Source: Acinetobacter phage Petty. From it: a stretch of 40,739 nucleotides of DNA. The position numbers and the translations under genes are program-made. Below the pieces are notes generated by a model that was given only the letters and a program-made list of their open reading frames with translations, made no database searches and was not told where the DNA came from. The stretch lies in sequence record KF669656.1; one strand, given 5' to 3'. Shown here piece after piece: positions 1 through 40,739 of this stretch (positions are counted from its first letter, which is position 1; each line of letters begins with the position of its first letter).

Positions 1-308
1 TATAGTTTTCTGAGAGGGTATCCCCACCCTGCGCCGTCCAGCCTTCCCCCATAGGGTTCTTGCTTAGGATGACTTAGTCTATGATCAAGACTTTATAGTA
101 TCCTAAGCTATTTATTATCAAGACTGTTTCATCTTTTAATCTCCTTTCGTGGTAACTGATTGCAAGTTTATACAGTCCTTTCGATAGTGTCAAGCATTTA
201 TTGATAAATTTATTCAACTATTTTTTAAATCGGGTACTAAGTCTATGATTATCAATAGATTATAGTTATATCTTTATAGATTTATATATAGATTTATAGG
301 TTTATAGG
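1..308. repeat. Left direct terminal repeat (DTR), at least 308 bp
   Basis: Positions 1..308 are identical to 40432..40739 (checked by alignment of line blocks; offset 40431). The first ~50 nt are relatively GC-rich (gagggtatccccaccctgcgccgtccagccttccccc); the rest is AT-rich with short internal repeats (atcaagact x2, agtctatgat x2, tagatttata x3). Confidence 0.9.
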
Positions 309-382
309 TTTATTCATAGATTCAACGGCTTGCCTTTTATCATTTACTTTACCTTTTATCGTTTTAAGTATCCTATTGAGTA

Positions 383-450
383 TCTCTAATCATTCTCTAA
401 TCAATTCGCTAGTACTTCTCTAATCATTCTCTAATCATTCTCTAACCAAT
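383..450 (+). repeat. Tandem array of an 11-bp unit TCTCTAATCAT: about 5 copies plus one interrupting segment
   Basis: Read directly: tctctaatcat / tctctaatcaat / tcgctagtact / tctctaatcat / tctctaatcat / tctctaaccaat. It sits just inside the left DTR, analogous to the short repeat arrays next to the T7 terminal repeats. Confidence 0.8.
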
Positions 451-472
451 CTATAGAATATTTATTTAATTA

Positions 473-488
473 TTTTTTTTTTTTTTTT
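473..488. repeat. T16 homopolymer tract
   Basis: An uninterrupted run of 16 T starting at 473, in the left-end non-coding region. Confidence 0.85.
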
Positions 489-518
489 ATTCATTCTTAG
501 ATATTCTTATTTATTTAT

Positions 519-547
519 TCTATCAGTGTCCCTTCTAAATTTATTAT
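519..547 (-). promoter_or_regulatory. Inverted copy of the putative phage-RNAP promoter motif, oriented leftward toward the DTR
   Basis: The reverse complement of 515..545 reads aataaATTTAGAAGGGACACTgaTAGAATAA. It matches the + strand copies at 9791, 12922 and 19847, especially the 9791 copy (..GGGACACTacaTAGAATAA). Confidence 0.5.
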
Positions 548-696
548 TATTAATCAATAACTTATAAGACTCAGAATGTAATTATTTCGCCTTAAATGTA
601 ATTATATGTAATTACTATATAACTATATAAAACAATAACTTACTATTAAAAAATGTATCTCAATTGTAATCATTTAAAAATTTATTCATATTGTGC

Positions 697-724
697 TTGA
701 CATCCTGATTTTTTCAGGTAATAT
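697..724 (+). promoter_or_regulatory. Strong sigma70-type early promoter P1 (TTGACA-16-TAATAT)
   Basis: TTGACA at 697..702, 16-nt spacer, TAATAT at 719..724; A/T-rich UP-like sequence upstream. Confidence 0.7.
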
Positions 725-802
725 GAGCCTCGTACCAAGCGAATAACGCAACGGTATAGACTAGCTAGGGATGACCTACTTAGTAATTAATTAAAAATAT
801 GC

Positions 803-831
803 TTGACATCTAAACTATGAATCGTTATAGT
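803..831 (+). promoter_or_regulatory. Strong sigma70-type early promoter P2 (TTGACA-17-TATAGT)
   Basis: TTGACA at 803..808, 17-nt spacer, TATAGT at 826..831; upstream aaaaatatgc resembles P1 and P3. Confidence 0.7.
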
Positions 832-920
832 TGAGTTAAGTTTTAAATAACTGTACAAGTGCATGAGCCTAGCATTGTCTAAGGCAAGATTGACAAGGTA
901 CAAAATAATTTAAAAAGTAC

Positions 921-948
921 TTGACACTATCGAAAAACAGTGTAAAGT
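921..948 (+). promoter_or_regulatory. sigma70-type early promoter P3 (TTGACA-16-TAAAGT)
   Basis: TTGACA at 921..926, 16-nt spacer, TAAAGT at 943..948. A weaker fourth TTGACA at 889 has a poor -10. The three tandem promoters parallel T7 A1/A2/A3. Confidence 0.65.
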
Positions 949-9610: not shown

Positions 9611-9790
9611 TGTATTATTAGTTATGGTGCTGCTGGTTATTGCAGCACTCACTGTATTCGACAATGGAGATCGAGATTGAACGTCATCGTAGCATTAATA
9701 TTTGGTTAAGTCTGACATTGTAAAGTTATGTAAAAGAACCTTCATTTTACTTACATTCTGACCTTTGTAACTGGTTGATTTAATGTAAGT

Positions 9791-9817
9791 AATTTAGAAG
9801 GGACACTACATAGAATA
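9791..9817 (+). promoter_or_regulatory. Putative phage-RNAP promoter (AATTTAGAAGGGACACTacaTAGAATA) upstream of the DNA polymerase gene
   Basis: One of three + strand copies of the conserved 17-nt core AATTTAGAAGGGACACT, intergenic, 27 nt before the RBS of the gene at 9844. Confidence 0.6.
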
Positions 9818-9843
9818 AAAGCATAATCCGAAGGAGAGATTAA

Positions 9844-12189
9844 ATGGCTTGGCTAACGCTGGATTTAGAAGTACAGAACCATAAATGGTTTGGTTCAGTA
9901 GCTTCACCGCATTGCCCTGATAACTACATTGTTGCTACTGGTTGGGCTACAGATGCTAACCCTGTAGAACATGAGTACTTCGATACTAAAGAACAATCTT
10001 TAGAATCTGACTGGTTAGAACGTGCACTAGAGGGACAACGTATTCTAGTCGCTCATAATATTACGTTTGAATTACACTGGTTGTTTAAGTGTTATCCTAA
10101 AGTAATCTTCAATTGGTTAAACAATGGTGGACGTTTATTCTGTACACAGTTAGCAGAGTACCTACTTACTGAACAAACAGAACAGTATCCGAAGTTAGAG
10201 GATTGTTCTGTCAAGTACCGAGATCAAGGTGTAGATGAACATGATGTTCGTAAACTCGATGAGGTTAAGATTCTTTGGGAACAAGGTGTATTAACTGCGG
10301 ATATTGATAAGGAGTTACTACTTAGTTATCTATGTGATGATACTCATGGTGACGTAGCGAATACCCGACGTGTAGCTTTCAAGCAGTACGCCTTACTACA
10401 ATCTCGTGGTATGTGGAAGATGTTTCAGGCTCGTATGGACAGTGTGTTATTCAATGCTTTGGCAACGTACAATGGTTTGTATGTGAATCAGCCTGTAGCT
10501 CAACGTAACTTGAAAGCACAGCTAGAAGCAATTGAGAGCCTCACAGAGCGTATCTTGAATTACTTACCATCTGATCTACCAGATGAACTGGAGTTCTCTC
10601 TAACGAGCCAATACCATCGTTCTGCATTACTGTTTGGTGGGGCTATCAAGTACCGTAAGAAAGTATCTTACTCACCTAAGAAGTACGTAAAGACTGCTGC
10701 GTATGAGTTCACGTACCCTGAGAGTGGTGAGAAAGACTACTGCACCATTGATGAGTACAATGCTGGACACAAGTGGGCTACTCCCGAAACAGTTACACGC
10801 TATAAGTCTGGTAAGAACAAGGGGCAACCTAAAATATTCCAGATTGATTCCACTGAGGAACTTCTTAAGTGGGGTGATGGTACGTATGTATTCGATGGAT
10901 TGATTGACTTCAACGATCTACCAAGCCACGTAGCTGAACAGTACATTGGTAAACGTGCAGAGTTCAAAGGTAAGCGTGAGCTTGTATGTGGTTCACCTAT
11001 CTACAGTACTTCGGGTGATAGTCTGGATGTCCTTGCGAACTTCACAGATGTAGCTAAGCCAATTAAGGAACTGGCAACATTGCAGAAGGATACAGGCACG
11101 TACTATCTCATGGAGGATTCTAACGGTAAGGTTAGCGGTATGCTACAGTTCGTTGAACCTGATAGTATCATCCACCACCAACTGAATAGCTGCTCGACAA
11201 TTACTGGTCGCTTGTCATCAAGTAAACCGAACTTCCAGAACTTACCTCGTGCTGATGAAGATGAGGATGGGAACTTAAAATCCCGTGTGAAGGAAATGTT
11301 CACATCACGCTTTGGTGATCAAGGTCGTATCGTGGAGGTGGACTACAGTGCACTCGAAGTTGTGACACTGGCAACCATTTCTGGTGATAAGAACTTAATG
11401 CGAATGCTGAACGAAGGTATTGACATGCACTGTTATCGTTTAGCTGCTAAACTTGGAGAGGATTACGATGAAGTAAAACGTAAATGTAAAGATCAGTCAC
11501 ACCCAGAACATGCTCGTTATTCCGTAATGCGTACTGAGATTAAACCTCGTGCCTTCGCCCACCAGTACGGAGCTTCTGATGCTGGTATCTCTTACAGTAC
11601 AGGGTGTACATTGGAGGAGGCTAAGGAGTTCAAGCGTATTGAGTTTGAGCTATTCCCAGAGTCTAACGCCTACCCTAACGATATAGTTCGCCCAGAGGTT
11701 GAACGTCGTGGTAATGAAGGACTACCTCTCCGTGAATGCGTAGATGGTGTCTGGAGTATCTATCGACGTGGGTACTTCAAAGCGAAGTCTGGTACTTGTT
11801 ATTCTTTCCGACAGTACCCTAAACGTGTAGATGGTCAAATGATCATGGACTACAAGGATACCCAGATCGCTAACTACTGGTGTCAAGGTGAGGCATCATT
11901 CATTGTACAAGCTGCATGTGGTCGTGTAGCTCGTGAGTTCATCCATCGTAACTTCTTTGATGGGCAAGCACTACCAATCAACACAGTACACGATGCTATC
12001 TATCTTGACTGTGCCACTGAGGAGATCGCCATTGAAGCTGGACGTTTAGTTAGAGAGATCATGGAGAGCACACCTAAATGGCTTACAGAGGTTATCCCTG
12101 AGTTATTAGAGTGGAATTATCACATCACACCATTCCCTGCTGCTTGTGAACAGGGGGTAAATATGGCAAATAAAACCCACGTAGATTAA
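9844..12189 (+). CDS. DNA polymerase (family A, T7 gp5-like) with N-terminal 3'-5' exonuclease domain
   Basis: 781 aa. Pol motif A DYSALEVV, motif B K-x3-AFAHQYG, motif C VHDAIYLD; N-terminal exonuclease region (LDLEVQN). Strong GAAGGAGAG RBS. Confidence 0.9.
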   Translation: MAWLTLDLEVQNHKWFGSVASPHCPDNYIVATGWATDANPVEHEYFDTKEQSLESDWLERALEGQRILVAHNITFELHWLFKCYPKVIFNWLNNGGRLFCTQLAEYLLTEQTEQYPKLEDCSVKYRDQGVDEHDVRKLDEVKILWEQGVLTADIDKELLLSYLCDDTHGDVANTRRVAFKQYALLQSRGMWKMFQARMDSVLFNALATYNGLYVNQPVAQRNLKAQLEAIESLTERILNYLPSDLPDELEFSLTSQYHRSALLFGGAIKYRKKVSYSPKKYVKTAAYEFTYPESGEKDYCTIDEYNAGHKWATPETVTRYKSGKNKGQPKIFQIDSTEELLKWGDGTYVFDGLIDFNDLPSHVAEQYIGKRAEFKGKRELVCGSPIYSTSGDSLDVLANFTDVAKPIKELATLQKDTGTYYLMEDSNGKVSGMLQFVEPDSIIHHQLNSCSTITGRLSSSKPNFQNLPRADEDEDGNLKSRVKEMFTSRFGDQGRIVEVDYSALEVVTLATISGDKNLMRMLNEGIDMHCYRLAAKLGEDYDEVKRKCKDQSHPEHARYSVMRTEIKPRAFAHQYGASDAGISYSTGCTLEEAKEFKRIEFELFPESNAYPNDIVRPEVERRGNEGLPLRECVDGVWSIYRRGYFKAKSGTCYSFRQYPKRVDGQMIMDYKDTQIANYWCQGEASFIVQAACGRVAREFIHRNFFDGQALPINTVHDAIYLDCATEEIAIEAGRLVREIMESTPKWLTEVIPELLEWNYHITPFPAACEQGVNMANKTHVD

Positions 12190-12662: not shown

Positions 12663-12928
12663 CACCTGAACTAGCTTATGCTATGAAGGTACTGTACATC
12701 AAGGCATTGAGTCCACAACAGTACAGTAGCCTGCTTAGTATGTTCCAGCATCAAGGTGTACGGGAGGTAGTAGTTCAACTACCTTACCGCAGACCTGATA
12801 TTAGACGAGATAGTCCACTACCAAGTGCTGATCAACTTCATCATGTGCTCAGTTTAACGGTGGAGGACTTCTGGGACGCTATGGATTCTATTGACCATTT
12901 AGTATCAATTGTTCCTTCTAAAATTTAG
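12659..12928 (+). CDS. Hypothetical protein (89 aa)
   Basis: ATG at 12659 overlaps the TGA of the HNH frame (ATGA). The stop codon sits inside the palindrome CCTTCTAAAATTTAGAAGG. Confidence 0.65.
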   Translation: MTPELAYAMKVLYIKALSPQQYSSLLSMFQHQGVREVVVQLPYRRPDIRRDSPLPSADQLHHVLSLTVEDFWDAMDSIDHLVSIVPSKI

Positions 12929-12947
12929 AAGGGACACTTATAAGATA
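12922..12947 (+). promoter_or_regulatory. Putative phage-RNAP promoter (AATTTAGAAGGGACACTTATAAGATA)
   Basis: Identical over 26 nt to the copy at 19847..19872; intergenic, 36 nt upstream of the ATG at 12983. Confidence 0.65.
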
Positions 12948-12982
12948 GTAAACGTATTCACTCACTTTCAAGAGGTATTATT

Positions 12983-13852
12983 ATGAGCTTTTTAAATCAA
13001 CTTCAAAACATTGACGTAACTACTTTAGATGATATGACTGACGTAAAAGTTGGTGGTGAGTCACGAGGCTTACTCCCTACTGGTACAGCTTATGTACGTC
13101 CATGTATGTACATCGAGTACGGTTCACACGTACAAACATTCAACGGTGTGGCTAAGCCTGCTGCTCCAATCTTTAAACTTGGCTTCCGTATCGTTGGCGG
13201 TGGTGGTTTGAACCTTGAGGGTAAACCTGAGAAGTACGTCCTTGAAGAAGGTAAGTTCCCATTAATTACTACATTCGATACAACTTTAGGGTTCTATGAG
13301 AAGTCTAAATCTATTCAGTACTTCAACGCACTGAACCGTGTTGGCAACAAAGCAACTCACTTCGTACAGAAGATTGCTGAGCAATGTATCTACGCATTAC
13401 CTATTGGTGTGAAGAAGAACAAGCAAGGTAAGGACGTGCAAGATATTGACTTCACGAATCTACAAGTGGCTCTGAACCAAGAAACATTCGAGCAGCGTAC
13501 TGGTGACCCTACACTGTCTGATGAACATATCCAAGTGTTCTTATGGGATACACCTACTATCGAAATGTGGGACAGTATCTTCATCGAAGGTGAGTTCCCT
13601 GCACAGAAGGATGAGAGTGGCAAGATCACAAAGCCTGCCCGTTCACGTAACTTCCACCAAGAGAAATGCTTAAGTGCTCTGAACTTTGAAGGTTCACCAT
13701 TACAGTTACTTCTCCAAGAGAAAGGTAAGTCGTACACAATCCCAGAGTTACCTACAACTCCTGATGTACCAGAGGAAACACCTAATGAGCCTGATGCTGT
13801 GACACCGCCACCTACTGATGGTGCTGTGCTTACACCGCCAGACTTAGACTAA
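12983..13852 (+). CDS. Hypothetical protein (289 aa) with Pro/acidic C-terminal tail; candidate ssDNA-binding protein (inference only)
   Basis: AGAGG RBS; directly downstream of a phage-promoter copy and followed by a strong hairpin. C-terminus TPDVPEETPNEPDAVTPPPTDGAVLTPPDLD. No catalytic motif seen. Confidence 0.7.
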   Translation: MSFLNQLQNIDVTTLDDMTDVKVGGESRGLLPTGTAYVRPCMYIEYGSHVQTFNGVAKPAAPIFKLGFRIVGGGGLNLEGKPEKYVLEEGKFPLITTFDTTLGFYEKSKSIQYFNALNRVGNKATHFVQKIAEQCIYALPIGVKKNKQGKDVQDIDFTNLQVALNQETFEQRTGDPTLSDEHIQVFLWDTPTIEMWDSIFIEGEFPAQKDESGKITKPARSRNFHQEKCLSALNFEGSPLQLLLQEKGKSYTIPELPTTPDVPEETPNEPDAVTPPPTDGAVLTPPDLD

Positions 13853-17021: not shown

Positions 17022-19493
17022 ATGCAAGACCTATATGAACGTCAGTTAGCGTTGGAGGAGGAGTACTCTAACGCAAGTTTAGCAGCAGGGCAACAGGTCG
17101 TATTAGATGCCTTTAAACAGGGTCGTGCTGCTGATATTAGTGCAGGGCGTGTCCTACTAGCCAAAGCCTTTGAAGCAGGCTTAGAACAGTTTACAGTGGC
17201 TCTAGCGAAGCCTTCTCGTGGGCTTGCTGGCAAGTACCGTAAATTATTACACTATGCACCTCCTGACGTTTTGGTAATGGCTGGTTTACGTGAAGTTATT
17301 AACGCATGTGCCAGTGCAGAACCAGTAAGTATGCAATACGTATTAACTCGTGTAGGACGTATTATCGAAGCTGAGTCTATGCTGGCTTGTATGCAACAAG
17401 TGAACGCACAGTACACTAATCGTACAGTACAGTACTTAGATTCAGCAGGCACAAAATCAATCACTCACCGTTACCGTACATTCTTGTCTGGTGCTCAGAA
17501 CATGGGTATGGATTGGGAGATATGGTCAAACACAGAACGTGTGCAAGTGGCTCGTATATTACTCACAGAGTTATATGAAGCTACAGGCTTGTTCAAGTGG
17601 GTGACACCTCAGTACAACTCATCACATACACAGTACTACCTAGAACCTTCTGAGGCTCTGGCTAAACACTTCCAAGATATTCAGAGTGCTGCTCGTGCTG
17701 TCATTAAGTATCCACCTATGCTCATTAAGCCTATGGATTGGGAAGGTTACATGAACGGTGGGTATCTAACTGAATGGTTTAGACACAATAGCCCTATGTG
17801 CTCACTTCGATATGTACGCCAGATTGATCGCAACTGGATTGTCAAAGGTCTATCAGATGAAGCTGCACAACCTGTACGTGATGCAATGAACAAAGCACAG
17901 AGTACAGCATATCGTGTTAATAAACAAGTACTTGAGGTACTGCGTAAAGCGACAGCAATGCGTGTGGGTATTTTAGGTTTACCGTCATTTGCTGAACTAC
18001 CTCAACCTGAATTTCCACTAGCAGATGGTTGGCAAAAGGATGATGCAACTGAATCTGAACTTGAGATTTTCCAACTATGGAAATCTCGTATGGCAGCTTG
18101 GTACACGGCTGAGAATAAACGCAAAGGTCGTCATACAGGCATTTTAATTAAGTTACGTGAACTCACACGATACAAGGACGAGGAGGCTCTGTACTTCCCA
18201 ACATTCATCGACTGGCGTGGTCGCCTGTACTTCCGTAGTGCATTGAATCCACAAGCCAATGATGCTGTGAAGGGGTGCTTAGAGTTCGCCAATGGCAAGC
18301 CTCTTGGTAAAGATGGTTTGTTCTGGTTGAAGGTACACGTAGCGAATTGCTGTGGTTATGATAAGCATGACCCTGAACTAAAGGCGAAATGGACTGATGA
18401 GAACTGGACACAAATTGAAGATTTTATCAATAACCCGTTGGACGTTGATGCCCCTGAACCAGACACAGCATTTACCTTATTACAGGCTGGTCTGGCACTT
18501 CAAGCTGCGCTATCGCTGGAGAATCCAGAAGCCTACGTATGCCATGTCCCAGTCGCTATGGATGCAACTTGTTCAGGTCTGCAACACCTCAGTGCGCTCA
18601 CTCGTGACCCAGTAGGTGCGTACTATACTAACCTGATTGATAACGGTACTGATAAAAAGTCCGATATTTATTTACGAGTAGCCAGTGTAGCAGACGAAAC
18701 GAAAGCAGACTTCTGTTTACGTAAGAAAACTATCAAAGGTAAAGTAGAGAACGTGGCTGACCTTGTACTAGAGCATTATTGGAAGGAACGTAGTATCAGT
18801 CGTAATATGGCTAAGAAGCCTGTAATGACTTTCGTGTACGGTAGCACGTTATTAAGTACCATCGAGAGTATCGCATTAGATATGTCAGAGGGAGGTATGC
18901 CCGTCATCGAAGAAGATGGTAAGGTCATCTACAGCCACACAGCACTTGCCACACCTATTGGTAAAGCACTTCGTCGTGGTGTCTTAGAAACTGTACCAGA
19001 AGCAGCTAAGATGATGAGTTACTTACAGAAAATTGTACGTAGCCACAAAGATCAATGTATGCGTTGGTTCACACCAGTAGGTGTTCCAGTAGTGAACTGG
19101 ACAGAAGGTACTACAGACAAACGTATTAATATCCGTTCTATGGGTGTTGAGAAAGTTCTGATGATCTTCCGTACAGGGGAGTACGATACTCGTCGTGCAG
19201 CTAATGGTATTGTACCTAACTTTGTACATAGTATGGACAGTGCTCACCTATGCGCTACAATCAATCATTTCGAGGGTGACGTACTACCTATCCACGATTC
19301 ATTTGCAACACACCCTAGCGACGTAAGTGCTTTACACACATCACTTAGAAGTACATTCGTAGAGTTATACCAGAACTTTAAGATCGAAGATTTCTTGGAG
19401 TTCAATAGTGTGGATTACGAAGAACACACACCACCACCTCAAGGTAACTTAGATTTATCTCATGTTATCAATTCCCGTTATATGTTTGGTTAA
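17022..19493 (+). CDS. Single-subunit DNA-dependent RNA polymerase (T7 RNAP family)
   Basis: 823 aa. DWRGRLYFRSALNPQANDAVKG matches T7 DWRGRVYAVSMFNPQGNDMTKG; catalytic motifs DATCSGLQHLSALTRD, PVMTFVYGS, IHDSFAT, NFVHSMD. Confidence 0.95.
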   Translation: MQDLYERQLALEEEYSNASLAAGQQVVLDAFKQGRAADISAGRVLLAKAFEAGLEQFTVALAKPSRGLAGKYRKLLHYAPPDVLVMAGLREVINACASAEPVSMQYVLTRVGRIIEAESMLACMQQVNAQYTNRTVQYLDSAGTKSITHRYRTFLSGAQNMGMDWEIWSNTERVQVARILLTELYEATGLFKWVTPQYNSSHTQYYLEPSEALAKHFQDIQSAARAVIKYPPMLIKPMDWEGYMNGGYLTEWFRHNSPMCSLRYVRQIDRNWIVKGLSDEAAQPVRDAMNKAQSTAYRVNKQVLEVLRKATAMRVGILGLPSFAELPQPEFPLADGWQKDDATESELEIFQLWKSRMAAWYTAENKRKGRHTGILIKLRELTRYKDEEALYFPTFIDWRGRLYFRSALNPQANDAVKGCLEFANGKPLGKDGLFWLKVHVANCCGYDKHDPELKAKWTDENWTQIEDFINNPLDVDAPEPDTAFTLLQAGLALQAALSLENPEAYVCHVPVAMDATCSGLQHLSALTRDPVGAYYTNLIDNGTDKKSDIYLRVASVADETKADFCLRKKTIKGKVENVADLVLEHYWKERSISRNMAKKPVMTFVYGSTLLSTIESIALDMSEGGMPVIEEDGKVIYSHTALATPIGKALRRGVLETVPEAAKMMSYLQKIVRSHKDQCMRWFTPVGVPVVNWTEGTTDKRINIRSMGVEKVLMIFRTGEYDTRRAANGIVPNFVHSMDSAHLCATINHFEGDVLPIHDSFATHPSDVSALHTSLRSTFVELYQNFKIEDFLEFNSVDYEEHTPPPQGNLDLSHVINSRYMFG

Positions 19494-19827: not shown

Positions 19828-19846
19828 GTTATTGATTCTATATTAA

Positions 19847-19872
19847 AATTTAGAAGGGACACTTATAAGATA
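19847..19872 (+). promoter_or_regulatory. Putative phage-RNAP late promoter (AATTTAGAAGGGACACTTATAAGATA) ahead of the structural module
   Basis: Identical to the 12922 copy; intergenic; immediately followed by GGAG and the first structural-region gene. Confidence 0.65.
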
Positions 19873-19883
19873 GGAGATAAGAT

Positions 19884-30693: not shown

Positions 30694-33600
30694 ATGGTAG
30701 ACAATACTAAACCTGTGGCTATGCCTCTAGGACAACCAATCAAAGGTATTCCAGTAAACGTAGCACACGACCCAAACGTGCCTGTTTCAGAGCGATCTAC
30801 AGGTGAAGCTCCTGTTCTATCATTAGTTGAACCTTCTGAAACGCCTGCTCCTGTCCCTAAGACAGAGGCAGAGCAGGCACTTGATTTAAAGATTGAAGAA
30901 GAACGAGCATCTGTATTGGCATCTATTGGTGCTGGTATGGGTGGTCTAGGTATTGATATATACCGTAGTGCTCGTAGTGCATTAATCTATGAGCGTGACC
31001 CTAATTTTAATCACCAACCATTAAGTGATGAGTTCTTCACTCAGGCTGGTGCGGGTACGCCAGAGGAAGTTAAGTACTTGGCAGATGCTAAGAACGATGC
31101 TGACTTTGAAGATCGTACCAAGTATATTTTAGACAACCGTATGCGTCGTCAAGCTATGGCGGATAACCCTGTGTCTGGTCTTGTAGGTTCTTTAGTGGAC
31201 GTAGATATTGCTGTAGGTGGTGCTAAGATTCGTAATGTTGCTAATGCTGCTTCTACAGCAGGGCGTTTAGGTACTCGTGCTGGTGCTGGTGCTATTGGTG
31301 CTGGTGCTATGGTAGGTATCCAAGCTGCTCAAGGAGATAACACCTTACGCACAGAAGGTGAACAGTTAGGTGATGTATTCACTATGGGTATTTCCCGTTC
31401 ACTTGCTCCATTGGCTAAAGGGCAACCTCAAGTAATTGCTGGTGCTGGTGCACAAGGAGCACAAGGCGTTCCTACCACTGTACAACAGAGCGTAAACAGT
31501 GCTGCTAACCAAGTGCAACAACAGATTCAGACTTATACACCGCCAACAGGTACACCTACACAACAGGTTGCTAAGAACAAGTACATTGCTGCTTTACAAA
31601 GTACTGCTGATTACCTTCGTTATATTACTAATGGAGATACAACTACAGTAGTGAATAAGCTGTTAAGTAACCCAGCCTTCAACAATGGCGACGATGTTGT
31701 GAGTCTACAACAGGTGTACCTGAACAACTATGGGCAGCGTTTAAATGCGTTCTCCGATGCCTTCAAGGATGCTATCGCTGCTACTGGTACACGCAGTAAC
31801 CCTATTTCACGTATTACAGGACGGTATGCTCGTGCTGCGGAAGCTGTAGGGTCTGATTTCCAAGTAGCGTTACAACGTGTGGATGCAGATGTACTTGACT
31901 ACTACAAGACCAATGGTGTACTGCCTAATGATGTAGAGTTCAATAAGATGCTTGCTGCCCATAACAATGAGCCACATATTAACTCTTTGATTAAGGCTTA
32001 TATGGATTCTGGTATTGCTGAGAAAGCGTATGATGATATGCTGAGTTCTCCGTTGGCTATCCGAGAGGAGATCGACCCAGTTACAGGTAATACAATCCAA
32101 ACGAACATTATGGATGACATTGTACGTCGTCCTACGTATATGCGTTTACAGCATGATTATGACCGTATGGCACATACTGTAGAAGTTGCTAAGAAAGCTA
32201 CTTGGGATGAAATGGCTACGTTTATCGGTGACCAGATCACTAAGATGTATCCTGATCTATTAAATCCTAAAGGTGCTGGTAAGGCATTTAAACTCTCAGT
32301 TAAGCAAGTAGGTGATCACTATTTACAAACACAACGTCAAGCCTCTCGTGGTTTAAGTGACGTTTCTGCTGTGGGTATGAGTGTAGAGGATATGGCTAAG
32401 TTACTCACTGAGTCTGGTCAAGTTACTCAAAAGGAAGCTGTTAGCCTAGCATCTGAGATTTACAAACGCTCTCACGATAAAGGTACATCTATGCCTAAAC
32501 ACTTACGTAGACGTATTGATTGGGACTGGAATGCTACCATGCGTACTGCATCTGGTCATAAGTTAAGTATGCGTGACTTCGTGAACTCTAACGTGATGGG
32601 TAACTTAGAAGGTTATACCACGAGTCTTGGACACCGTTTAGGTCTTGCTGGTTATGGTCTTAAGAGTGAGGCTGACTTAGATAACCTATTAGAAAGTTAT
32701 TACTCTAAACTTCCTGCTGATGTGTCACCACAAGAAGCCAGACAGTTTATGAAGAACACTAAGGATACTTTGCTAGGTCGTCCTATTGAGAACAACCCTG
32801 TTCCAGAAGGTGTACGATCTGCACAAGCCGTTGCTGATATGTTCTTACTTGCTAACTCAGGTTTATTAGGTATGGTGGATGTAGCTTCTCAATTACAAAA
32901 AGTAGGTGTTATTCGTTCAATCCCTGCTATACGTAAAGGTTTAAAAGCTGTGTTCAAAAGCATGTCAAAAATAAGTAAGCAAGATGCTAAGGACTTAGAG
33001 GACATCTTAACATTACGTATGCTTCAAGGTTCTCAATGGAAGAACTTTGTACCACGTTATGCAGATAACTTCGAGGTATCTGGTGGTATCCATGAGGCTG
33101 CTCAGTACTATGGACAGAGTGCTCGTTTTATGAACTTATCAGAATCCCTAAAGCGTTTCCAAGTTGGTATCCTAGCTTCTGTGTACGCACGGAACTTGAA
33201 ACGTGCCATGAAAGGTGACGCTAAAGAGTTAGCCTTTATGAAGGATAAACTCAAGATAGACGGGACACTTATAAGAGAGATAGAACAAGAGTACGCTAAA
33301 CATGGTACAAACATTGATAATTGGAGTAATGCTGTACGGGTGAAGTACGAACAGAAGATTTACCACGATGCTGATAACTTAGCGATGTCTGTACATAACG
33401 GTGAAGTGCCTGCAATCCTAGAGCATTCTGCTGTAGGTCGTATCATCTTCCCGTACATGCGTTATACATTCGCTATGCAGAACAAGGTGCTTCGTAGAAC
33501 GTACAACCGTGATGGTGCTACAGGTTTAGCCATGTTACTTGCTTTCCAGATTCCTACTGCAATGCTGGTGGCAGCAGCAATTAACGTGCGTAAAGAAAAA

Positions 33601-33861
33601 GAACCTGACCATGACTTAGCTCTAGGAACTATCAAGAGTATGACGGCTTTCGGTTCATTGAACTACCCGTTTGAGATTGCTATGAGTGGTTTGGATGGGG
33701 GTGGTGTTACAGCGTTAGCCCCATTTGGTAAAACTTATAACTTCGGTAAGGAGTTATTCACTGGTGGCGAAGATGGTGAGGTGTCACCGTACAAACTCAT
33801 CAAGAACTCACCGATTAATGCTACACCATTAGATTATTTAGCTTTAGCTTTGGAGGATTAG
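30694..33861 (+). CDS. Internal virion protein C (gp16-like position, ejection-channel protein)
   Basis: 1055 aa; largest core protein, directly ahead of the tail fibre gene. No lytic-transglycosylase signature noted by eye. Confidence 0.65.
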   Translation: MVDNTKPVAMPLGQPIKGIPVNVAHDPNVPVSERSTGEAPVLSLVEPSETPAPVPKTEAEQALDLKIEEERASVLASIGAGMGGLGIDIYRSARSALIYERDPNFNHQPLSDEFFTQAGAGTPEEVKYLADAKNDADFEDRTKYILDNRMRRQAMADNPVSGLVGSLVDVDIAVGGAKIRNVANAASTAGRLGTRAGAGAIGAGAMVGIQAAQGDNTLRTEGEQLGDVFTMGISRSLAPLAKGQPQVIAGAGAQGAQGVPTTVQQSVNSAANQVQQQIQTYTPPTGTPTQQVAKNKYIAALQSTADYLRYITNGDTTTVVNKLLSNPAFNNGDDVVSLQQVYLNNYGQRLNAFSDAFKDAIAATGTRSNPISRITGRYARAAEAVGSDFQVALQRVDADVLDYYKTNGVLPNDVEFNKMLAAHNNEPHINSLIKAYMDSGIAEKAYDDMLSSPLAIREEIDPVTGNTIQTNIMDDIVRRPTYMRLQHDYDRMAHTVEVAKKATWDEMATFIGDQITKMYPDLLNPKGAGKAFKLSVKQVGDHYLQTQRQASRGLSDVSAVGMSVEDMAKLLTESGQVTQKEAVSLASEIYKRSHDKGTSMPKHLRRRIDWDWNATMRTASGHKLSMRDFVNSNVMGNLEGYTTSLGHRLGLAGYGLKSEADLDNLLESYYSKLPADVSPQEARQFMKNTKDTLLGRPIENNPVPEGVRSAQAVADMFLLANSGLLGMVDVASQLQKVGVIRSIPAIRKGLKAVFKSMSKISKQDAKDLEDILTLRMLQGSQWKNFVPRYADNFEVSGGIHEAAQYYGQSARFMNLSESLKRFQVGILASVYARNLKRAMKGDAKELAFMKDKLKIDGTLIREIEQEYAKHGTNIDNWSNAVRVKYEQKIYHDADNLAMSVHNGEVPAILEHSAVGRIIFPYMRYTFAMQNKVLRRTYNRDGATGLAMLLAFQIPTAMLVAAAINVRKEKEPDHDLALGTIKSMTAFGSLNYPFEIAMSGLDGGGVTALAPFGKTYNFGKELFTGGEDGEVSPYKLIKNSPINATPLDYLALALED

Positions 33862-38034: not shown

Positions 38035-39978
38035 ATGACCTATATTACCGAACAGGTTGCTCGTCGTTTGAACATGCTCTCGACTGAGTGTAAGAAATGG
38101 GCAAACGCACCACATGAAATTCCTAGTGAGAAACGGGAAGAACTGAGCATGATGTTCGGTAGTACCTTTAAAGACTTCCGTGCCTTCGCTGAATTAGGTA
38201 TGAAGTACTTAGGTTTTGATCTATCGAATATGCAGGCTGATATAGCCCACTTCATGCAGAAAGGTCGTGCTAAGCGTATGGTACAGGCTCAGCGTGGTCA
38301 AGCGAAATCTACGCTTGCTGCTTTGTACTGTATCTGGTTACTCCTACGTGACCCTACGTGTCGTGTACTTATTGTGTCTGGTGGTGAGAAGCAGGCATCT
38401 GACGTGGCACTTATGATCATTCGTATGATTATGAATTGGTCGCTTCTGTGCTGGTTGCGTCCTGATATTGCTAAAGGTGATAGAAGTTCTGTTTCTGCCT
38501 TCGACGTACACCATTCACTTAAGGGTATTGATAAGTCGGCATCTGTATCATGCGTAGGTATCACTGCGAACTTACAGGGTATGCGAGCAGACTTCATTCT
38601 CGCTGATGATATTGAAACACAACGTAACTCTATGACTCAAACTGAGCGAGAGAAGTTACAGTTACTTATTAAAGAATTTGCTGCGATCTGTATTAGTGGT
38701 GAGATCATGTACTTAGGTACACCTCAGACTAAAGACAGTATCTATCGCCTCCTCCCTGCTCGTGGTTACGACGTTAGAGTTTGGACAGGGCGTTACCCTA
38801 CCAATGAAGAACTTGAGCGTTATGGGGCTGGTGTGACGATTGCGCCTATGATTATGCAGGCACTCTTAGAAAATCCAGCTTTACAGACAGGTGGTGGTAT
38901 CGAAGGTAATCGTGGACAACCTACAGATGATGGACACATCAATGAGGATATTCTACAAGAGAAGGAACTTGAGTACGGTGAGGAAGGTTTCTCATTACAG
39001 TACATGCTCGATACAACGCTCTCAGATGCTCTTAGAACGAAGATTAAGTTAAGTGATACCTTAGTACTAGCGGTAGACAATCACAGCGTTCCTGAGCGAT
39101 TACACTGGCAAGCAGAGCCATCTAAACTGTACAAGGGTAGTTCTCCTAACGTGCAGGACTTTAGAATGTATCATGCTAGTGGTGTATCAGATACTTTTGT
39201 TCCGTTTGAACATAAGGTAATGACACTTGACCCTGCTGGTGCTGGTGGTGATGAATTGTCATTCGCTGCTGGTGGTGCTACGAACTCTTACATCTATCTG
39301 TTATCAGTAGGTGGGTTCATCGGTGGTACTACTCAGAAGAACATTGAAGCAGTTATCGAGAAGATGCTGTTGCTTGATATTCATGTACTAGACATCGAGA
39401 AGAACATGGGTCATGGTACAGTTCTATCATTATTCGTAGAACGCCTAGAAGCTCTTAAGAACCTGTGTAAGCAACAATCGAAGGACATCCAATGGTTATG
39501 TACCAGTACAGGTCTATCGTTGCGTGAGCTTGAATCTAAGCTGAATCAGATAGGTCTTACAGAGTACTACTCGACTGGTCAGAAGGAACGTCGTATTATC
39601 GACACGATCTCTCCATTAACTCGTCGTCATAAGTTAGTAGTAACTGTACAGGCGATTGAGGATGATTGGGAGTACTGTAAAGGACATAACCCAGAGAAGC
39701 GATTACAGTTCAGTGCGTTTCAACAAATGGGTAATATCACGTATGATCGCAACAGCTTAGTCCATGATGACCGAGCAGACTGTGTTCAACGTGTAGTAGA
39801 GGTACTTGCTCCATTCTTGAGTAAGGATGAGGAGAAGGCTCACCAAGAGCGACAGGAGGCTGTTATAGCAGAGTTCTTAAAGAACCCTATGGGATACAGC
39901 CAGAATGTGTTAGCACAGCTTAATCGTAAAGGTATTAAGCGTAATAACTATAAACGTCGGGGAAGTATCCGTCGTTAA
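38035..39978 (+). CDS. Terminase large subunit (T7 gp19-like)
   Basis: 647 aa; Walker A-like QAQRGQAKST and Walker B ILADDIE; AAGGAGG RBS; penultimate large gene, as in T7. Confidence 0.85.
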   Translation: MTYITEQVARRLNMLSTECKKWANAPHEIPSEKREELSMMFGSTFKDFRAFAELGMKYLGFDLSNMQADIAHFMQKGRAKRMVQAQRGQAKSTLAALYCIWLLLRDPTCRVLIVSGGEKQASDVALMIIRMIMNWSLLCWLRPDIAKGDRSSVSAFDVHHSLKGIDKSASVSCVGITANLQGMRADFILADDIETQRNSMTQTEREKLQLLIKEFAAICISGEIMYLGTPQTKDSIYRLLPARGYDVRVWTGRYPTNEELERYGAGVTIAPMIMQALLENPALQTGGGIEGNRGQPTDDGHINEDILQEKELEYGEEGFSLQYMLDTTLSDALRTKIKLSDTLVLAVDNHSVPERLHWQAEPSKLYKGSSPNVQDFRMYHASGVSDTFVPFEHKVMTLDPAGAGGDELSFAAGGATNSYIYLLSVGGFIGGTTQKNIEAVIEKMLLLDIHVLDIEKNMGHGTVLSLFVERLEALKNLCKQQSKDIQWLCTSTGLSLRELESKLNQIGLTEYYSTGQKERRIIDTISPLTRRHKLVVTVQAIEDDWEYCKGHNPEKRLQFSAFQQMGNITYDRNSLVHDDRADCVQRVVEVLAPFLSKDEEKAHQERQEAVIAEFLKNPMGYSQNVLAQLNRKGIKRNNYKRRGSIRR

Positions 39979-40005
39979 TTCAATTAAATTCAACAGGAGA
40001 TTAAT

Positions 40006-40197
40006 ATGAGTTTACTAGATAAAGTTAAAGCTGTCCGTGTACAAGATGCTGAGCAAGTACTAAGTACCGCTAAAATCGTCGTACAGAGCGCACAGGCGTT
40101 AAATAGCACTGGCACGTACAAACATAAGGAGAAGGTCGATAAAGCTCTGTATGGAGCATCTGTGACTCTCTCAGTGCTAGAGCGAGTGCTACGATGA
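40006..40197 (+). CDS. Hypothetical protein (63 aa)
   Basis: ATG at 40006 with CAGGAGA RBS; right-end small gene. Confidence 0.65.
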   Translation: MSLLDKVKAVRVQDAEQVLSTAKIVVQSAQALNSTGTYKHKEKVDKALYGASVTLSVLERVLR

Positions 40198-40364
40198 GTT
40201 ATAGTCCTAGAGTTAAAGTAGAAGTTCAACGTGAGGTTCACGAAGCCTTACGTGAGCTTAAGCAAAGAGGAGAATCTTTCAATGATGTGATTGCACGTTT
40301 ACTGGAATCCCAGAAGTGTGTTCAGGAGTGTATTCAGAAGTGTTCAGGTAATTGTTCAGAGTAG
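40194..40364 (+). CDS. Small ribbon-helix-helix-like protein (56 aa)
   Basis: ATG overlaps the upstream stop (ATGA). The N-terminus SYSPRVKVEVQREVHEALRELKQRGESFNDVIARLLE has the RHH beta-strand, helix, G-x-S turn and second helix. The Cys-rich C-terminal third overlaps the GTTCAG repeat array. Confidence 0.45.
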   Translation: MSYSPRVKVEVQREVHEALRELKQRGESFNDVIARLLESQKCVQECIQKCSGNCSE

Positions 40365-40391
40365 TTCAGAAGTGTTCAGTAGAGTGTTCAG
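40311..40391 (+). repeat. Array of about 7 short degenerate repeats (AGTGTTCAGG-type, 9 to 13 bp periodicity) adjacent to the right DTR
   Basis: TTCAG recurs at 40322, 40334, 40343, 40355, 40365, 40374 and 40387 with similar flanks; the array ends about 40 nt before the DTR boundary at 40432. Confidence 0.7.
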
Positions 40392-40739
40392 GATTCCTCT
40401 TGGGAGTACTATGTCACAACCTAAAATTTGGTATAGTTTTCTGAGAGGGTATCCCCACCCTGCGCCGTCCAGCCTTCCCCCATAGGGTTCTTGCTTAGGA
40501 TGACTTAGTCTATGATCAAGACTTTATAGTATCCTAAGCTATTTATTATCAAGACTGTTTCATCTTTTAATCTCCTTTCGTGGTAACTGATTGCAAGTTT
40601 ATACAGTCCTTTCGATAGTGTCAAGCATTTATTGATAAATTTATTCAACTATTTTTTAAATCGGGTACTAAGTCTATGATTATCAATAGATTATAGTTAT
40701 ATCTTTATAGATTTATATATAGATTTATAGGTTTATAGG

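What the first reader, a model, noticed from the sequence alone, without database searches (positions are those of the whole stretch)
515..547. Inverted copy of the phage promoter motif at the left end, aimed at the terminal repeat
The reverse complement of 515..545 is aataaATTTAGAAGGGACACTgaTAGAATAA, a near-perfect copy of the promoter motif. It is oriented leftward, about 210 bp inside the DTR boundary.

Transcription from it would run through the T16 tract, the 11-bp repeat array and the DTR. In a concatemer that means it would enter the right end of the neighbouring unit.

In T7, promoters next to the terminal repeats (phiOL, phiOR) are implicated in replication initiation and concatemer processing. 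A leftward promoter at the left end is not the T7 arrangement.
Basis: partly seen in the sequence, partly recalled or inferred. Interest (0 to 1): 0.65.

Follow-up and report, generated by a model that had tools for sequence, protein, structure and literature searches.

The report
Leftward phage promoter facing terminal repeat
Near its left end this T7-family phage carries one copy of its own RNA-polymerase promoter pointing backwards into the terminal repeat; seven related genomes keep the same backward copy, and phiKMV-type phages are already known to have one, so it is real and conserved but not new, and its purpose is still unknown.

Summary
The window is a complete 40,739-bp Autographiviridae genome with an exact 308-bp terminal repeat (DTR). 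The 17-mer AATTTAGAAGGGACACT occurs three times rightward, before the DNA polymerase gene, a middle gene and the structural genes. It occurs once leftward at 525-541, about 210 bp inside the DTR boundary.

The leftward copy is very likely a working promoter. Six related genomes each use a different promoter core. Each keeps one inverted copy of its own core at the same place, between the DTR and the host-type early promoters. A fixed upstream element (TAAGTnnnTGAT) is also retained.

The AS12 motif family was validated by primer extension, but only rightward copies were reported. In the phiKMV-like phage LUZ19, cap-selective long-read RNA sequencing (ONT-cappable-seq) mapped such an antisense promoter (P001). 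Its transcripts reach the right end of that genome.

So this is a new member of a known kind, extended here to the Beijerinckvirinae-type lineage.

The predicted RNA is non-coding, unstructured and 69% purine. It enters the lowest-GC stretch of the genome.

Function is untested. I favour a cis-acting role at the DNA ends, meaning transcription that opens or primes DNA as at a T7 origin. The main rival is the published idea that it blocks read-through into early genes.

The parts
520..541 (-). Core of the leftward phage-RNAP promoter, AATTTAGAAGGGACACTGATAG. The predicted start is the G at about 520, by analogy with SP6/T7-type promoters (inferred, not mapped).
   Evidence: The 17-mer is identical to the three + copies. 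The site lies in non-coding DNA. Relatives keep an inverted copy of their own core at the same place.
552..564 (-). Upstream promoter element TAAGTTATTGATT (TAAGTnnnTGAT), at a fixed distance from the core.
   Evidence: TAAGT or TAACT starts 26-29 nt before the 11-nt core anchor in 18 of 22 promoter copies from 7 genomes, including all 7 leftward copies. For TAAGT alone, 16 of 22 copies have it in that position, against a chance rate of 2.3% per site (alignment).
571..581 (-). Far-upstream block TTACATTCTGA, shared only with the + promoter before the DNA polymerase gene (9751-9761).
489..519 (-). Initially transcribed purine-rich leader (GAAUAAAUAAAUAAGAAUAUCUAAGAAUGAAUA).
   Evidence: 80% purine and 10% GC over a 40-nt window beginning a few nt downstream of the predicted start. 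All 7 leftward copies start with short A/G-rich repeats such as GAATAAAGAATAAAG or GATAAGATAAG.
473..488 (.). T16 tract (A16 in the leftward RNA), inside the lowest-GC 60-nt window of the whole genome.
   Evidence: The lowest-GC window starts at 458 with 7% GC.
383..448 (.). Array of five TCTCTAA(T/C)CA units at 11-bp spacing, with one interruption. It is crossed by the leftward transcript.
328..340 (+). GCTTGCCTTTTAT, a motif conserved at or near the inner DTR boundary. It lies about 200 bp downstream of the leftward promoter.
   Evidence: The motif is found in all 7 genomes. In AS12 the annotated DTR end (338) falls inside it. Spacing to the promoter core is 193-235 bp in 6 of 7 genomes.
1..308 (.). 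Left direct terminal repeat, crossed by the leftward transcript. It contains the conserved terminal motif TGAGAGGGTATCCCCAC at 11-27.
   Evidence: Exact repeat of 40432-40739. The terminal motif is shared, exactly or as near variants, with L005, Acibel007 and VH-5.
40432..40739 (.). Right copy of the DTR. On a concatemer the leftward transcript would continue from here into the right-end genes in antisense.
   Evidence: No terminator is predicted on either strand in 39700-40739.
165..193 (-). Leftward sigma-70-type promoter-like site inside the DTR (TTGACA, 17 nt, TAAACT). It is a second, host-type source of leftward transcription.
   Evidence: 10 of 12 consensus matches. It is an inverted 33-nt, 79% copy of early promoter 3 (I1). 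Similar sites occur in relatives and phiKMV. T7 has the leftward E. coli promoter A0.
697..948 (+). Three rightward host-type early promoters (697-724, 803-831, 921-948), divergent from the leftward phage promoter.
   Evidence: 10-11 of 12 consensus matches each.
9788..9817 (+). Rightward phage promoter before the DNA polymerase gene (9844). It is the closest paralogue of the leftward copy.
12919..12948 (+). Rightward phage promoter before ORF 12983-13852.
19844..19873 (+). Rightward phage promoter after the RNA polymerase gene, at the head of the structural genes.

Best explanation
The site is a genuine promoter for the phage's own single-subunit RNA polymerase. It is the Beijerinckvirinae-type counterpart of the antisense promoter P001 mapped in the phiKMV-like phage LUZ19.

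Once the phage polymerase is made, it starts near position 520 and transcribes leftward. The RNA is non-coding, unstructured and purine-rich. It runs through the most AT-rich stretch of the genome, the T16 tract, the 11-bp repeats, the conserved GCTTGCC boundary motif and the DTR. On a concatemer it would continue in antisense into the right end of the neighbouring genome unit.

The role I commit to is inferred, not shown. The act of transcription works in cis on the DNA ends. The module is a phage promoter followed by an AT-rich tract, which is how T7 origins such as phiOL are built, but here it is turned round. A purine-rich RNA on a pyrimidine-rich template should favour a stable RNA-DNA hybrid. 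That hybrid could open the duplex and prime leftward DNA synthesis through the terminal repeat. This would help start replication, or help regenerate or expose the repeat at concatemer junctions.

My probability split is about 0.85 that it is a functional leftward promoter. Given that, I put about 0.5 on the DNA-end role, about 0.3 on the read-through-blocking role, and the rest on other roles.
For: Shown here:
- The 17-mer core is identical to the three intergenic + copies and is not expected by chance.
- Six relatives with different cores each keep one inverted copy of their own core between the DTR and the host early promoters. The cores are AGAAGTCGGAC, AGAAGATAGAC, AGAAGTTACAC (VH-5), the related TGAAGTTACAC (AS12), AATCATGCGTAT and GCTACACGTATAAGA.
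- The fixed-distance upstream element is retained in all leftward copies.
- A 131-bp AS12 segment holding the leftward copy matches 151 phage records.
- The motif family in AS11/AS12 was confirmed as phage promoters by primer extension (PMC5537680).
- LUZ19 P001 was mapped by ONT-cappable-seq, with antisense transcripts reaching the right end. The antisense copy is conserved in 15 other Phikmvvirus species (PMC10914365). I located the phiKMV copy at 727 (-), between the DTR (1-414) and the host promoters at 897-1272.

For the cis-acting DNA role:
- The genome's lowest-GC window (7%, starting at 458) lies immediately downstream of the promoter.
- The leftward RNA is 69% purine from 520 to 309. 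This segment is the most pyrimidine-rich + strand stretch of its length in 5 of 7 genomes.
- Spacing to the DTR-boundary motif is 193-235 bp in 6 of 7 genomes, although the sequence in between is not conserved.
- There is no Rfam match, the fold z-score is -1.18, and there is no ATG ORF, so a product-based role is unlikely.
- T7 phiOL sits at a comparable distance from its repeat (405 against a 160-bp repeat) and is followed by an A-rich, 25% GC stretch. T7 origin structure and the 160-bp repeat length are established knowledge recalled from memory.
Against: - There is no transcript or replication data for this phage.
- The leftward copy departs from the late promoters just before and after the predicted start (GATAGAATAA against TATAAGATAG), so it may be weak.
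- The AT-rich minimum downstream of the leftward copy is not universal. In AS12 and Bhz21 the genome-wide minimum lies next to the DNA polymerase gene, and in VH-5 it lies next to an internal rightward phage promoter about 0.5 kb upstream of the polymerase gene.
- Purine enrichment is modest in Acibel007 (57%) and L005 (57-62%), and the spacing in L005 is 576 bp.
- In LUZ19 the antisense transcripts are long and run over gp47-49. That is not what a short primer RNA looks like. The authors proposed transcriptional insulation instead.
- Leading-strand synthesis primed at 520 would run off the end after about 520 nt, an odd geometry for a main origin.
- KP34-like and T7 phages have the left-end promoter pointing rightward, so the orientation itself may matter in ways this model does not explain.
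Confidence: 0.45

Rival explanations
1. Transcriptional insulator. Leftward transcription in middle or late infection collides with, or pairs as antisense RNA with, late transcripts that read through the right end and the DTR on concatemeric or circularised DNA. This keeps them out of the early genes. This is the hypothesis published for LUZ19 P001.
For: The authors who mapped P001 proposed it (PMC10914365). In the window no terminator is predicted between the last genes and the DTR, or within it. Late transcripts from 19844 should therefore cross the junction and meet the leftward transcripts. The promoter sits just upstream of the early promoters it would shield.
Against: It has not been tested anywhere. 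From memory (Ma and McAllister 2009), T7-type polymerases meeting head-on can pass one another, which would make collision a weak block. The model does not explain the AT-rich tract, the purine-rich leader or the conserved spacing to the DTR-boundary motif. T7 and KP34-like phages face the same read-through problem but have a rightward left-end promoter.
Confidence: 0.27
2. Packaging signal only. The polymerase travelling or pausing on the junction from the left-end side marks it for terminase, as proposed for T7 polymerase pausing at the concatemer junction after starting at phiOR. No RNA priming of DNA synthesis is involved.
For: The promoter is the only phage promoter close to the junction. 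There is no + copy after 19844 apart from a weak intragenic match at 33250. It lies a conserved distance from the GCTTGCC boundary motif. Short repeat arrays flank the DTR on both sides, as in T7. The T7 role of phiOR and junction pausing is established knowledge recalled from memory.
Against: Late read-through transcription already crosses the junction rightward, so a dedicated promoter seems unnecessary. No pause signal was identified. The direction is opposite to T7.
Confidence: 0.12
3. The leftward transcript is itself the product. It would be a regulatory non-coding RNA, an antisense regulator of right-end genes, or the mRNA of a small peptide.
For: LUZ19 antisense transcripts overlap gp47-49. 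A 47-codon TTG ORF exists at 74-217 on the - strand.
Against: There is no Rfam match at E<=1. The fold is no better than shuffled sequence, with z = -1.18. There is no ATG ORF of 20 codons or more. The sequence between the promoter and the DTR is not conserved among relatives; only composition and spacing are. The genes at the right end differ between phiKMV (lysis and minor structural genes) and this phage (terminase and small ORFs).
Confidence: 0.06
4. Non-functional relic or chance inverted duplication of a promoter-bearing segment.
For: The inverted copy shares about 60 nt of flanks with the 9796 copy, as a duplication would.
Against: A relic would not follow the changes in promoter specificity across seven genomes, nor persist across two subfamilies whose polymerases are about 31% identical.
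Confidence: 0.03

Closest known systems
LUZ19 promoter P001 and the conserved antisense phage-specific promoter of Phikmvvirus (Putzeys et al. 2024, PMC10914365)
   Same: It is a copy of the phage's own single-subunit-polymerase promoter in the opposite orientation to all genes. It lies in the left-end non-coding region between the DTR and the host early promoters: phiKMV copy at 727 (-), DTR 1-414, host promoters 897-1272. It is one of only about four phage promoters in the genome and is conserved across the genus. Its downstream RNA is purine-rich, 69% over 200 nt in phiKMV.
   Different: The promoter sequence is unrelated (GGTTATGTCACACACA against AATTTAGAAGGGACACT). The subfamily differs, with polymerases about 31% identical. 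The genome is GC-rich and has no AT-rich tract. The LUZ19 start site is mapped experimentally, whereas this one is only predicted.
T7 phiOL (left-end T7 promoter, secondary replication origin)
   Same: It is a phage promoter a few hundred bp inside the left terminal repeat, just before the host early promoters. It is followed by an A-rich, low-GC stretch and deviates somewhat from the consensus promoter.
   Different: phiOL points rightward, away from the repeat, while this one points into the repeat. Origin activity is documented for phiOL (established knowledge) and untested here.
T7 phiOR plus the concatemer-junction pause site
   Same: It is a phage promoter whose transcripts cross the terminal repeat at a concatemer junction.
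   Different: phiOR lies on the right-end side and fires rightward, while this one lies on the left-end side and fires leftward. No pause signal was identified here.
T7 E. coli promoter A0 (leftward)
   Same: It gives leftward transcription toward the left terminus from just inside or next to the terminal repeat. The window also has an A0-like sigma-70 site at 193->165.
   Different: A0 is a host-polymerase promoter, whereas the finding is a phage-polymerase promoter.
R-loop and transcript-primed origins: the T7 primary origin, T4 oriF/oriG and the mitochondrial LSP-CSBII (a functional analogy recalled from memory)
   Same: A promoter is followed by an easily opened or hybrid-prone segment, and the RNA is not translated.
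   Different: No RNA-DNA hybrid or RNA-to-DNA transition has been shown for this element, and it lies only about 520 bp from a DNA end.

Membership tests
Promoter set of this phage's single-subunit RNA polymerase | Matches the core shared by the intergenic rightward copies | tested here: met
   The 17-mer is identical. The weight-matrix score is 27.6 bits, fourth in the genome, and 0 matches are expected by chance.
Promoter set of this phage's single-subunit RNA polymerase | Core sequence changes together with polymerase specificity in relatives | tested here: met
   Six further genomes were examined. Each has its own core (those of VH-5 and AS12 are related), and each has an inverted copy of that core at the same place.
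Promoter set of this phage's single-subunit RNA polymerase | Carries the lineage's fixed-distance upstream element (TAAGTnnnTGAT) | tested here: met
   Present at 552-564. It is found in 18 of 22 copies, including all leftward ones.
Promoter set of this phage's single-subunit RNA polymerase | Transcription start mapped in vivo or in vitro | not testable with these tools
   Rightward AS11/AS12 promoters of the same family were confirmed by primer extension (PMC5537680). There are no data for any leftward copy in this subfamily.
phiKMV-type antisense left-end promoter (LUZ19 P001) | Phage-specific motif in the opposite orientation to all genes | tested here: met
phiKMV-type antisense left-end promoter (LUZ19 P001) | Located between the DTR and the host-type early promoters | tested here: met
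   The DTR ends at 308, the core is at 520-541, and the first host promoter is at 697. phiKMV has the same order.
phiKMV-type antisense left-end promoter (LUZ19 P001) | Transcripts extend across the genome end into right-end genes | not testable with these tools
   The only support here is the absence of predicted terminators on the path. It was measured in LUZ19.
phiKMV-type antisense left-end promoter (LUZ19 P001) | Sequence homology to the Phikmvvirus motif GgtTATGTCACacACAnnGG | tested here: not met
   The window motif is unrelated. Membership is by position and function, not by sequence.
T7 phiOL-type origin module | Phage promoter next to the left terminal repeat | tested here: met
   207 bp from the DTR boundary. 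T7 phiOL is at 405.
T7 phiOL-type origin module | AT-rich segment immediately downstream of the promoter | tested here: met
   GC is 7-10% at 451-517, the lowest in the genome.
T7 phiOL-type origin module | Rightward orientation | tested here: not met
   The window copy is on the - strand. T7 phiOL is on the + strand.
T7 phiOL-type origin module | Initiates DNA synthesis | not testable with these tools
   Needs replication-intermediate mapping.
T7 phiOR / junction-pause packaging element | Promoter on the right-end side firing rightward into the repeat, with a pause signal in the repeat | tested here: not met
   There is no rightward copy after 19844 except a weak intragenic match at 33250. 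Pause signals were not assessed rigorously.
Known structured RNA families (Rfam) | Match to a covariance model | tested here: not met
   0 matches at E<=1 over 1-1400 on both strands.

The most novel reading that the evidence does not exclude
The leftward promoter, its purine-rich leader and the GCTTGCC boundary motif about 200 bp away act as one device. This device would prime leftward DNA synthesis through the terminal repeat, and phiKMV-type and Fri1-type phages would use it either as their main replication origin or to regenerate the terminal repeat at concatemer junctions. If so, these phages solve the end-duplication problem with a transcript-primed route that T7 does not use. That would explain why one of only four phage promoters is spent on non-coding DNA.
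Probability: 0.25. Interest if true: 0.7.

Novelty: new member of a known kind. Interest (0 to 1): 0.4.

Why it matters
These phages have only three or four promoters for their own polymerase. One of them points away from every gene and into the terminal repeat. It has been kept through complete turnover of the promoter sequence in two subfamilies.

That level of conservation implies an important function that nobody has tested. It concerns how T7-family phages without T7's promoter layout start replication, rebuild their terminal repeats, or keep late transcription out of early genes.

There is also a practical point. The leftward copy is unannotated in nearly all of the roughly 150 Acinetobacter Friunavirus genomes that carry it. 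Many of those phages are therapy candidates or engineering chassis, so the site should be kept in mind when their left ends are edited.

Tried and rejected
- A DNA search of the left 1.4 kb against 50,697 phage records found nothing. The phage has no close sequenced relative; the best are VH-5 and Acibel007 at about 67% nucleotide identity over the structural genes.
- An exact 16-mer search of viral contigs gave four loci. None shows translated similarity to the window, so they are chance matches.
- A search with the DTR-start 17-mer returned L005 again plus three unrelated contigs.
- The single metagenome scan, with the terminase protein, gave only a 1.3-kb fragment and distant hits.
- An exact-protein look-up of the polymerase found no source contig.
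- The 'putative bacteriophage promoters' annotated in the phiKMV record (CCTACTCCGG type) were not used. A 15-nt inverted match between the phiKMV DTR (213) and 20554 was judged compatible with chance. The real phiKMV motif came from the LUZ19 paper.
- A product-based role was checked with Rfam, folding and ORF listing, all negative.
- Sigma-70 readings of the upstream TAAGT/TGAT element were tried by eye and did not fit.
- Supplementary tables of the LUZ19 paper are not held, so the P001 coordinates could not be read.
- Pectobacterium phage PP2 (Melnykvirinae) shows 11-15-nt inverted matches between the region after its polymerase gene and its end region. Its promoters are unknown, so I draw no conclusion.

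Full report
WHAT THE WINDOW IS

The 40,739-bp window is a complete linear phage genome with an exact 308-bp direct terminal repeat (1-308 = 40432-40739) and 42% GC. All long ORFs are on the + strand. Pfam identifies:
- a family-A DNA polymerase (9844-12189);
- a T7-type single-subunit RNA polymerase (17022-19493);
- portal, capsid and tail-fibre proteins;
- a T7-type large terminase (38035-39978).

The polymerase gene sits after the replication genes, as in phiKMV-like phages. Its closest relatives are Acinetobacter phage Acibel007, Vibrio phage VH-5 and the Friunavirus group, at 63-66% amino-acid identity. KP34-like phages are at about 37%, phiKMV-like at about 31% and T7 at about 27%. No close nucleotide relative is in the phage collection. 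It is therefore an unsequenced lineage of the Beijerinckvirinae type.

THE OBSERVATION

The 17-mer AATTTAGAAGGGACACT is exact at 525-541 (-). It is also exact at 9791, 12922 and 19847 (+), each in an intergenic gap: before the DNA polymerase gene, before ORF 12983, and between the RNA polymerase gene and the structural genes. Shuffles give 0.00 expected matches.

A weight matrix built from the + copies alone ranks the inverted site fourth (27.6 bits). The next site is a weak intragenic match at 33250.

The copy lies 207 bp inside the DTR boundary. The similarity is longer than reported. The inverted copy shares TTACATTCTGA about 45 nt upstream, and ATAGAATAAA downstream, with the 9796 copy. 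It shares TAAGTTATTGATT with the 19852 copy.

ANATOMY OF THE LEFT END

Reading leftward from the predicted start (the G at about 520, inferred from SP6/T7-type promoters), the transcript would cross these features in order:
- a purine-rich leader (80% purine, 10% GC over a 40-nt window beginning just downstream of the start);
- the T16 tract (473-488), inside the lowest-GC 60-nt window of the genome (7% GC, starting at 458);
- five 11-bp-spaced TCTCTAA(T/C)CA units (383-448);
- the motif GCTTGCCTTTTAT (328-340);
- the DTR.

No terminator-like hairpin is predicted on that path, nor between the last genes and the right DTR copy.

The 520-nt RNA has no Rfam match at E<=1. It folds no better than shuffles, with z = -1.18. 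It holds no ATG ORF of 20 codons or more.

It is 69% purine from 520 to 309 and 62% overall, against 52% for the + strand of the genome.

To the right of the promoter lie three strong host-type promoters firing rightward (697, 803, 921). The two promoter sets are therefore divergent.

COMPARATIVE EVIDENCE

I compared six related genomes:
- an IMG/VR contig (L005, terminase 79% identical);
- Acibel007;
- VH-5;
- AS12 (Friunavirus);
- Aristophanes;
- Bhz21.

Each has its own repeated core before the DNA polymerase gene and/or after the RNA polymerase gene. The cores are AGAAGTCGGACGTATAAGA, AGAAGATAGACGTATAAGA, TTTAGAAGTTACACGTCTAAGA, GAAGTTACACTTATAGAAGG, AATCATGCGTAT and GCTACACGTATAAGA.

Each genome also has exactly one inverted copy of that same core in the non-coding stretch between the terminal repeat and the host early promoters. 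The core sequence differs from genome to genome (those of VH-5 and AS12 are related), yet the inverted copy follows it every time. That is the signature of a site read by the co-evolving polymerase. It rules out chance or relic.

All seven leftward copies also share three further features:
- They keep an upstream element, TAAGT/TAACT 26-29 nt and usually TGAT about 20 nt before the core anchor. TAAGT/TAACT is present in 18 of 22 promoter copies. For TAAGT alone, 16 of 22 copies have it in that position, against a 2.3% chance rate per site.
- They begin with short A/G-rich repeats.
- They lie 193-235 bp from the conserved GCTTGCCTTT(T)AT motif in six of seven genomes, and 576 bp in L005. In AS12 the annotated DTR end falls inside this motif.

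The segment between the motif and the promoter is the most pyrimidine-rich + strand stretch of its length in five of seven genomes. The genome-wide minimum of cumulative purine skew falls within a few hundred bp to the right of the leftward promoter in the window, Acibel007, AS12, Aristophanes and phiKMV.

A 131-bp AS12 segment containing the leftward copy matches 151 phage records. In most of the records listed, nothing is annotated at the matched place.

EXPERIMENTAL ANCHORS FROM THE LITERATURE

Popova et al. 2017 found the AS11/AS12 motif with MEME and reported three matches per phage, all 'rightward'. They confirmed them by primer extension (PMC5537680). The AS12 record annotates only those three. 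The leftward copy at 561-581 matches the annotated promoter at 17 of 20 positions (my count from the sequences) and was not reported.

Putzeys et al. 2024 mapped LUZ19 transcription starts by ONT-cappable-seq (PMC10914365). They found four phage-specific promoters. [quoted passage not shown] The same antisense copy is present in 15 other Phikmvvirus species. The authors suggest it may prevent transcription from running into early genes on circularised DNA.

In the phiKMV record I located the motif at 20492, 20678 and 34956 (+) and at 727 (-). The inverted copy lies between the DTR (1-414) and the annotated host promoters (897-1272). The layout in the window is therefore the one already known for phiKMV-like phages.

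COMPARISON WITH T7 AND KP34-LIKE PHAGES

The T7 record lists phiOL at 405 and phiOR at 39229. The left-end phiOL sequence and the phiOR sequence both read rightward on the + strand. It also lists a leftward E. coli promoter, A0, at 224.

The KP34-like phage VLC6 has its left-end copy of the phage motif (about 494-517) pointing rightward.

A left-end phage promoter thus appears to be a shared positional feature of the family, with orientation differing by lineage. It is rightward in T7 and KP34-like phages. It is leftward in phiKMV-like phages and in the lineage of this window.

The window also has an A0-like host-type site inside the DTR (193->165). It is an inverted partial copy of early promoter 3. 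Comparable sites occur in L005, Acibel007, VH-5, Aristophanes and phiKMV.

HOW IT MOST LIKELY WORKS

Shown or strongly supported: the site is a promoter of the phage polymerase that fires leftward into non-coding DNA and the repeat.

Inferred: its purpose. I favour a cis-acting role on the DNA ends, for four reasons:
- The module has the build of a T7 origin, a phage promoter followed immediately by the most AT-rich DNA in the genome.
- The RNA is purine-rich on a pyrimidine-rich template, which should favour a persistent RNA-DNA hybrid.
- Spacing to the DTR-boundary motif is conserved while the intervening sequence is not.
- The RNA shows no sign of being a product in itself.

DNA synthesis primed there would copy the + strand to its 5' end and displace the 3' end of the old - strand. 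This is the direction needed to rebuild or expose the left repeat.

Several points count against this view:
- The LUZ19 antisense transcripts are long.
- In AS12, Bhz21 and VH-5 the AT-rich minimum lies elsewhere, next to the DNA polymerase gene or next to an internal rightward promoter.
- Purine enrichment is modest in two genomes.
- There is no experiment.

The main rival is the published insulator idea. It fits the absence of terminators at the right end, but it does not explain the compositional features. A packaging-signal-only role, an RNA-product role and a relic are less likely.

VERDICT

The element is a new member of a known kind. What is added here is the extension of that kind to a second subfamily with clear covariation, plus a description of conserved accompanying features. 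The function remains an open and testable question.

WHAT LED NOWHERE

- Left-end DNA search.
- Exact-motif and DTR-motif scans of viral contigs.
- The metagenome scan.
- The exact-protein look-up.
- The phiKMV record's own 'promoter' annotations and a 15-nt inverted match in phiKMV.
- Supplementary tables of the LUZ19 paper, which are not held.
- An inconclusive look at Pectobacterium phage PP2.

Noticed in passing
window 165-193 (- strand) and 40596-40624 (- strand): A leftward sigma-70-type promoter-like site lies inside the DTR (TTGACA, 17 nt, TAAACT; 10 of 12 matches). It is an inverted 33-nt, 79% copy of early promoter 3 (179-211 against 903-935). Comparable leftward sites lie in or near the repeat of L005, Acibel007, VH-5, Aristophanes and phiKMV (TTGACA, 16 nt, TAGAAT at 146). 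T7 has the annotated leftward E. coli promoter A0 at 224.
   Followed up: partly
window 328-340; AS12 L014 336-348; Acibel007 L012 333; VH-5 L013 41050; Bhz21 L016 11; L005 12997; Aristophanes L015 321: The motif GCTTGCCTTT(T)AT is conserved at or near the inner boundary of the terminal repeat in all seven genomes. In AS12 the annotated repeat end (338) falls inside it. It may be a terminase or nicking signal.
   Followed up: partly
window 11-27 and 40442-40458; L005 12563-12579; L012 about 79-98; L013 about 40741-40760: The terminal motif TGAGAGGGTATCCCCAC, followed by C-runs, is conserved (exactly or as near variants) about 10 nt inside the start of the repeat in the window, L005, Acibel007 and VH-5, but not in AS12.
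   Followed up: partly
window 552-564 and the equivalent positions of all promoter copies (alignment): Promoters of this lineage look bipartite. A TAAGTnnnTGAT element sits at a fixed distance (TAAGT 26-29 nt before the core anchor). A CGTnTT block often sits about 44 nt before the anchor. Both are well outside the usual -17 to +6 span of T7-type promoters. The two tandem AS12 promoters that follow a terminator lack the element, so it is not essential.
   Followed up: partly
window 12898-12938: A near-perfect palindrome, CCTTCTAAA-A-TTTAGAAGG, is formed by a partial inverted copy of the promoter's upstream half abutting the + promoter at 12922 (site 12898 -).
   Followed up: no
window 33250-33279 (+): A weaker promoter-like copy (GATAGACGGGACACTTATAAGAGAG, 21.6 bits) lies inside the 1055-aa ORF 30694-33861. 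phiKMV also has an internal copy in its structural region, at 34956.
   Followed up: no
window 40318-40391 and 383-448: Short repeat arrays flank the terminal repeat on both sides. GTGTTCAG occurs four times, plus variants, just before the right repeat. TCTCTAA(T/C)CA occurs five times just after the left repeat. VH-5 and Acibel007 have analogous arrays before their repeats. This resembles the short-repeat arrays beside the T7 repeat.
   Followed up: no
window 576-614: Three copies of ATGTAATTA lie just upstream (to the right) of the leftward promoter, in the AT-rich gap before the host promoters.
   Followed up: no
L014 (AS12) 10105-10237; window 9751-9843: In AS12 the genome's lowest-GC window (8%, starting at 10127) lies immediately downstream of the validated rightward promoter before the DNA polymerase gene. 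That layout resembles the T7 primary origin. In the window the equivalent promoter (9796) is the closest paralogue of the leftward copy.
   Followed up: no
L017 (Klebsiella phage VLC6) 494-517: The KP34-like phage has a copy of its phage promoter motif (ATGAAGT[AT]ACCGGAGTAGGA; also at 21282 and 32803) in the left-end non-coding region, but pointing rightward as in T7.
   Followed up: partly
whole window; L012, L014, L015, L018: Cumulative purine skew has its genome-wide minimum just right of the leftward promoter (715 in the window). Its maximum is near the start of the right repeat (40393). The whole left end, including the repeat, therefore has the opposite strand composition to the rest of the genome.
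   Followed up: partly
L024 (Pectobacterium phage PP2) 88-98, 41699-41709 and 19826-19836: An 11-15-nt motif found just after the RNA polymerase gene (CTCTGTAGTTA) recurs twice in inverted orientation in the end region of this Melnykvirinae genome. This hints that the leftward arrangement may be wider, but the promoters of this phage are unknown.
   Followed up: partly
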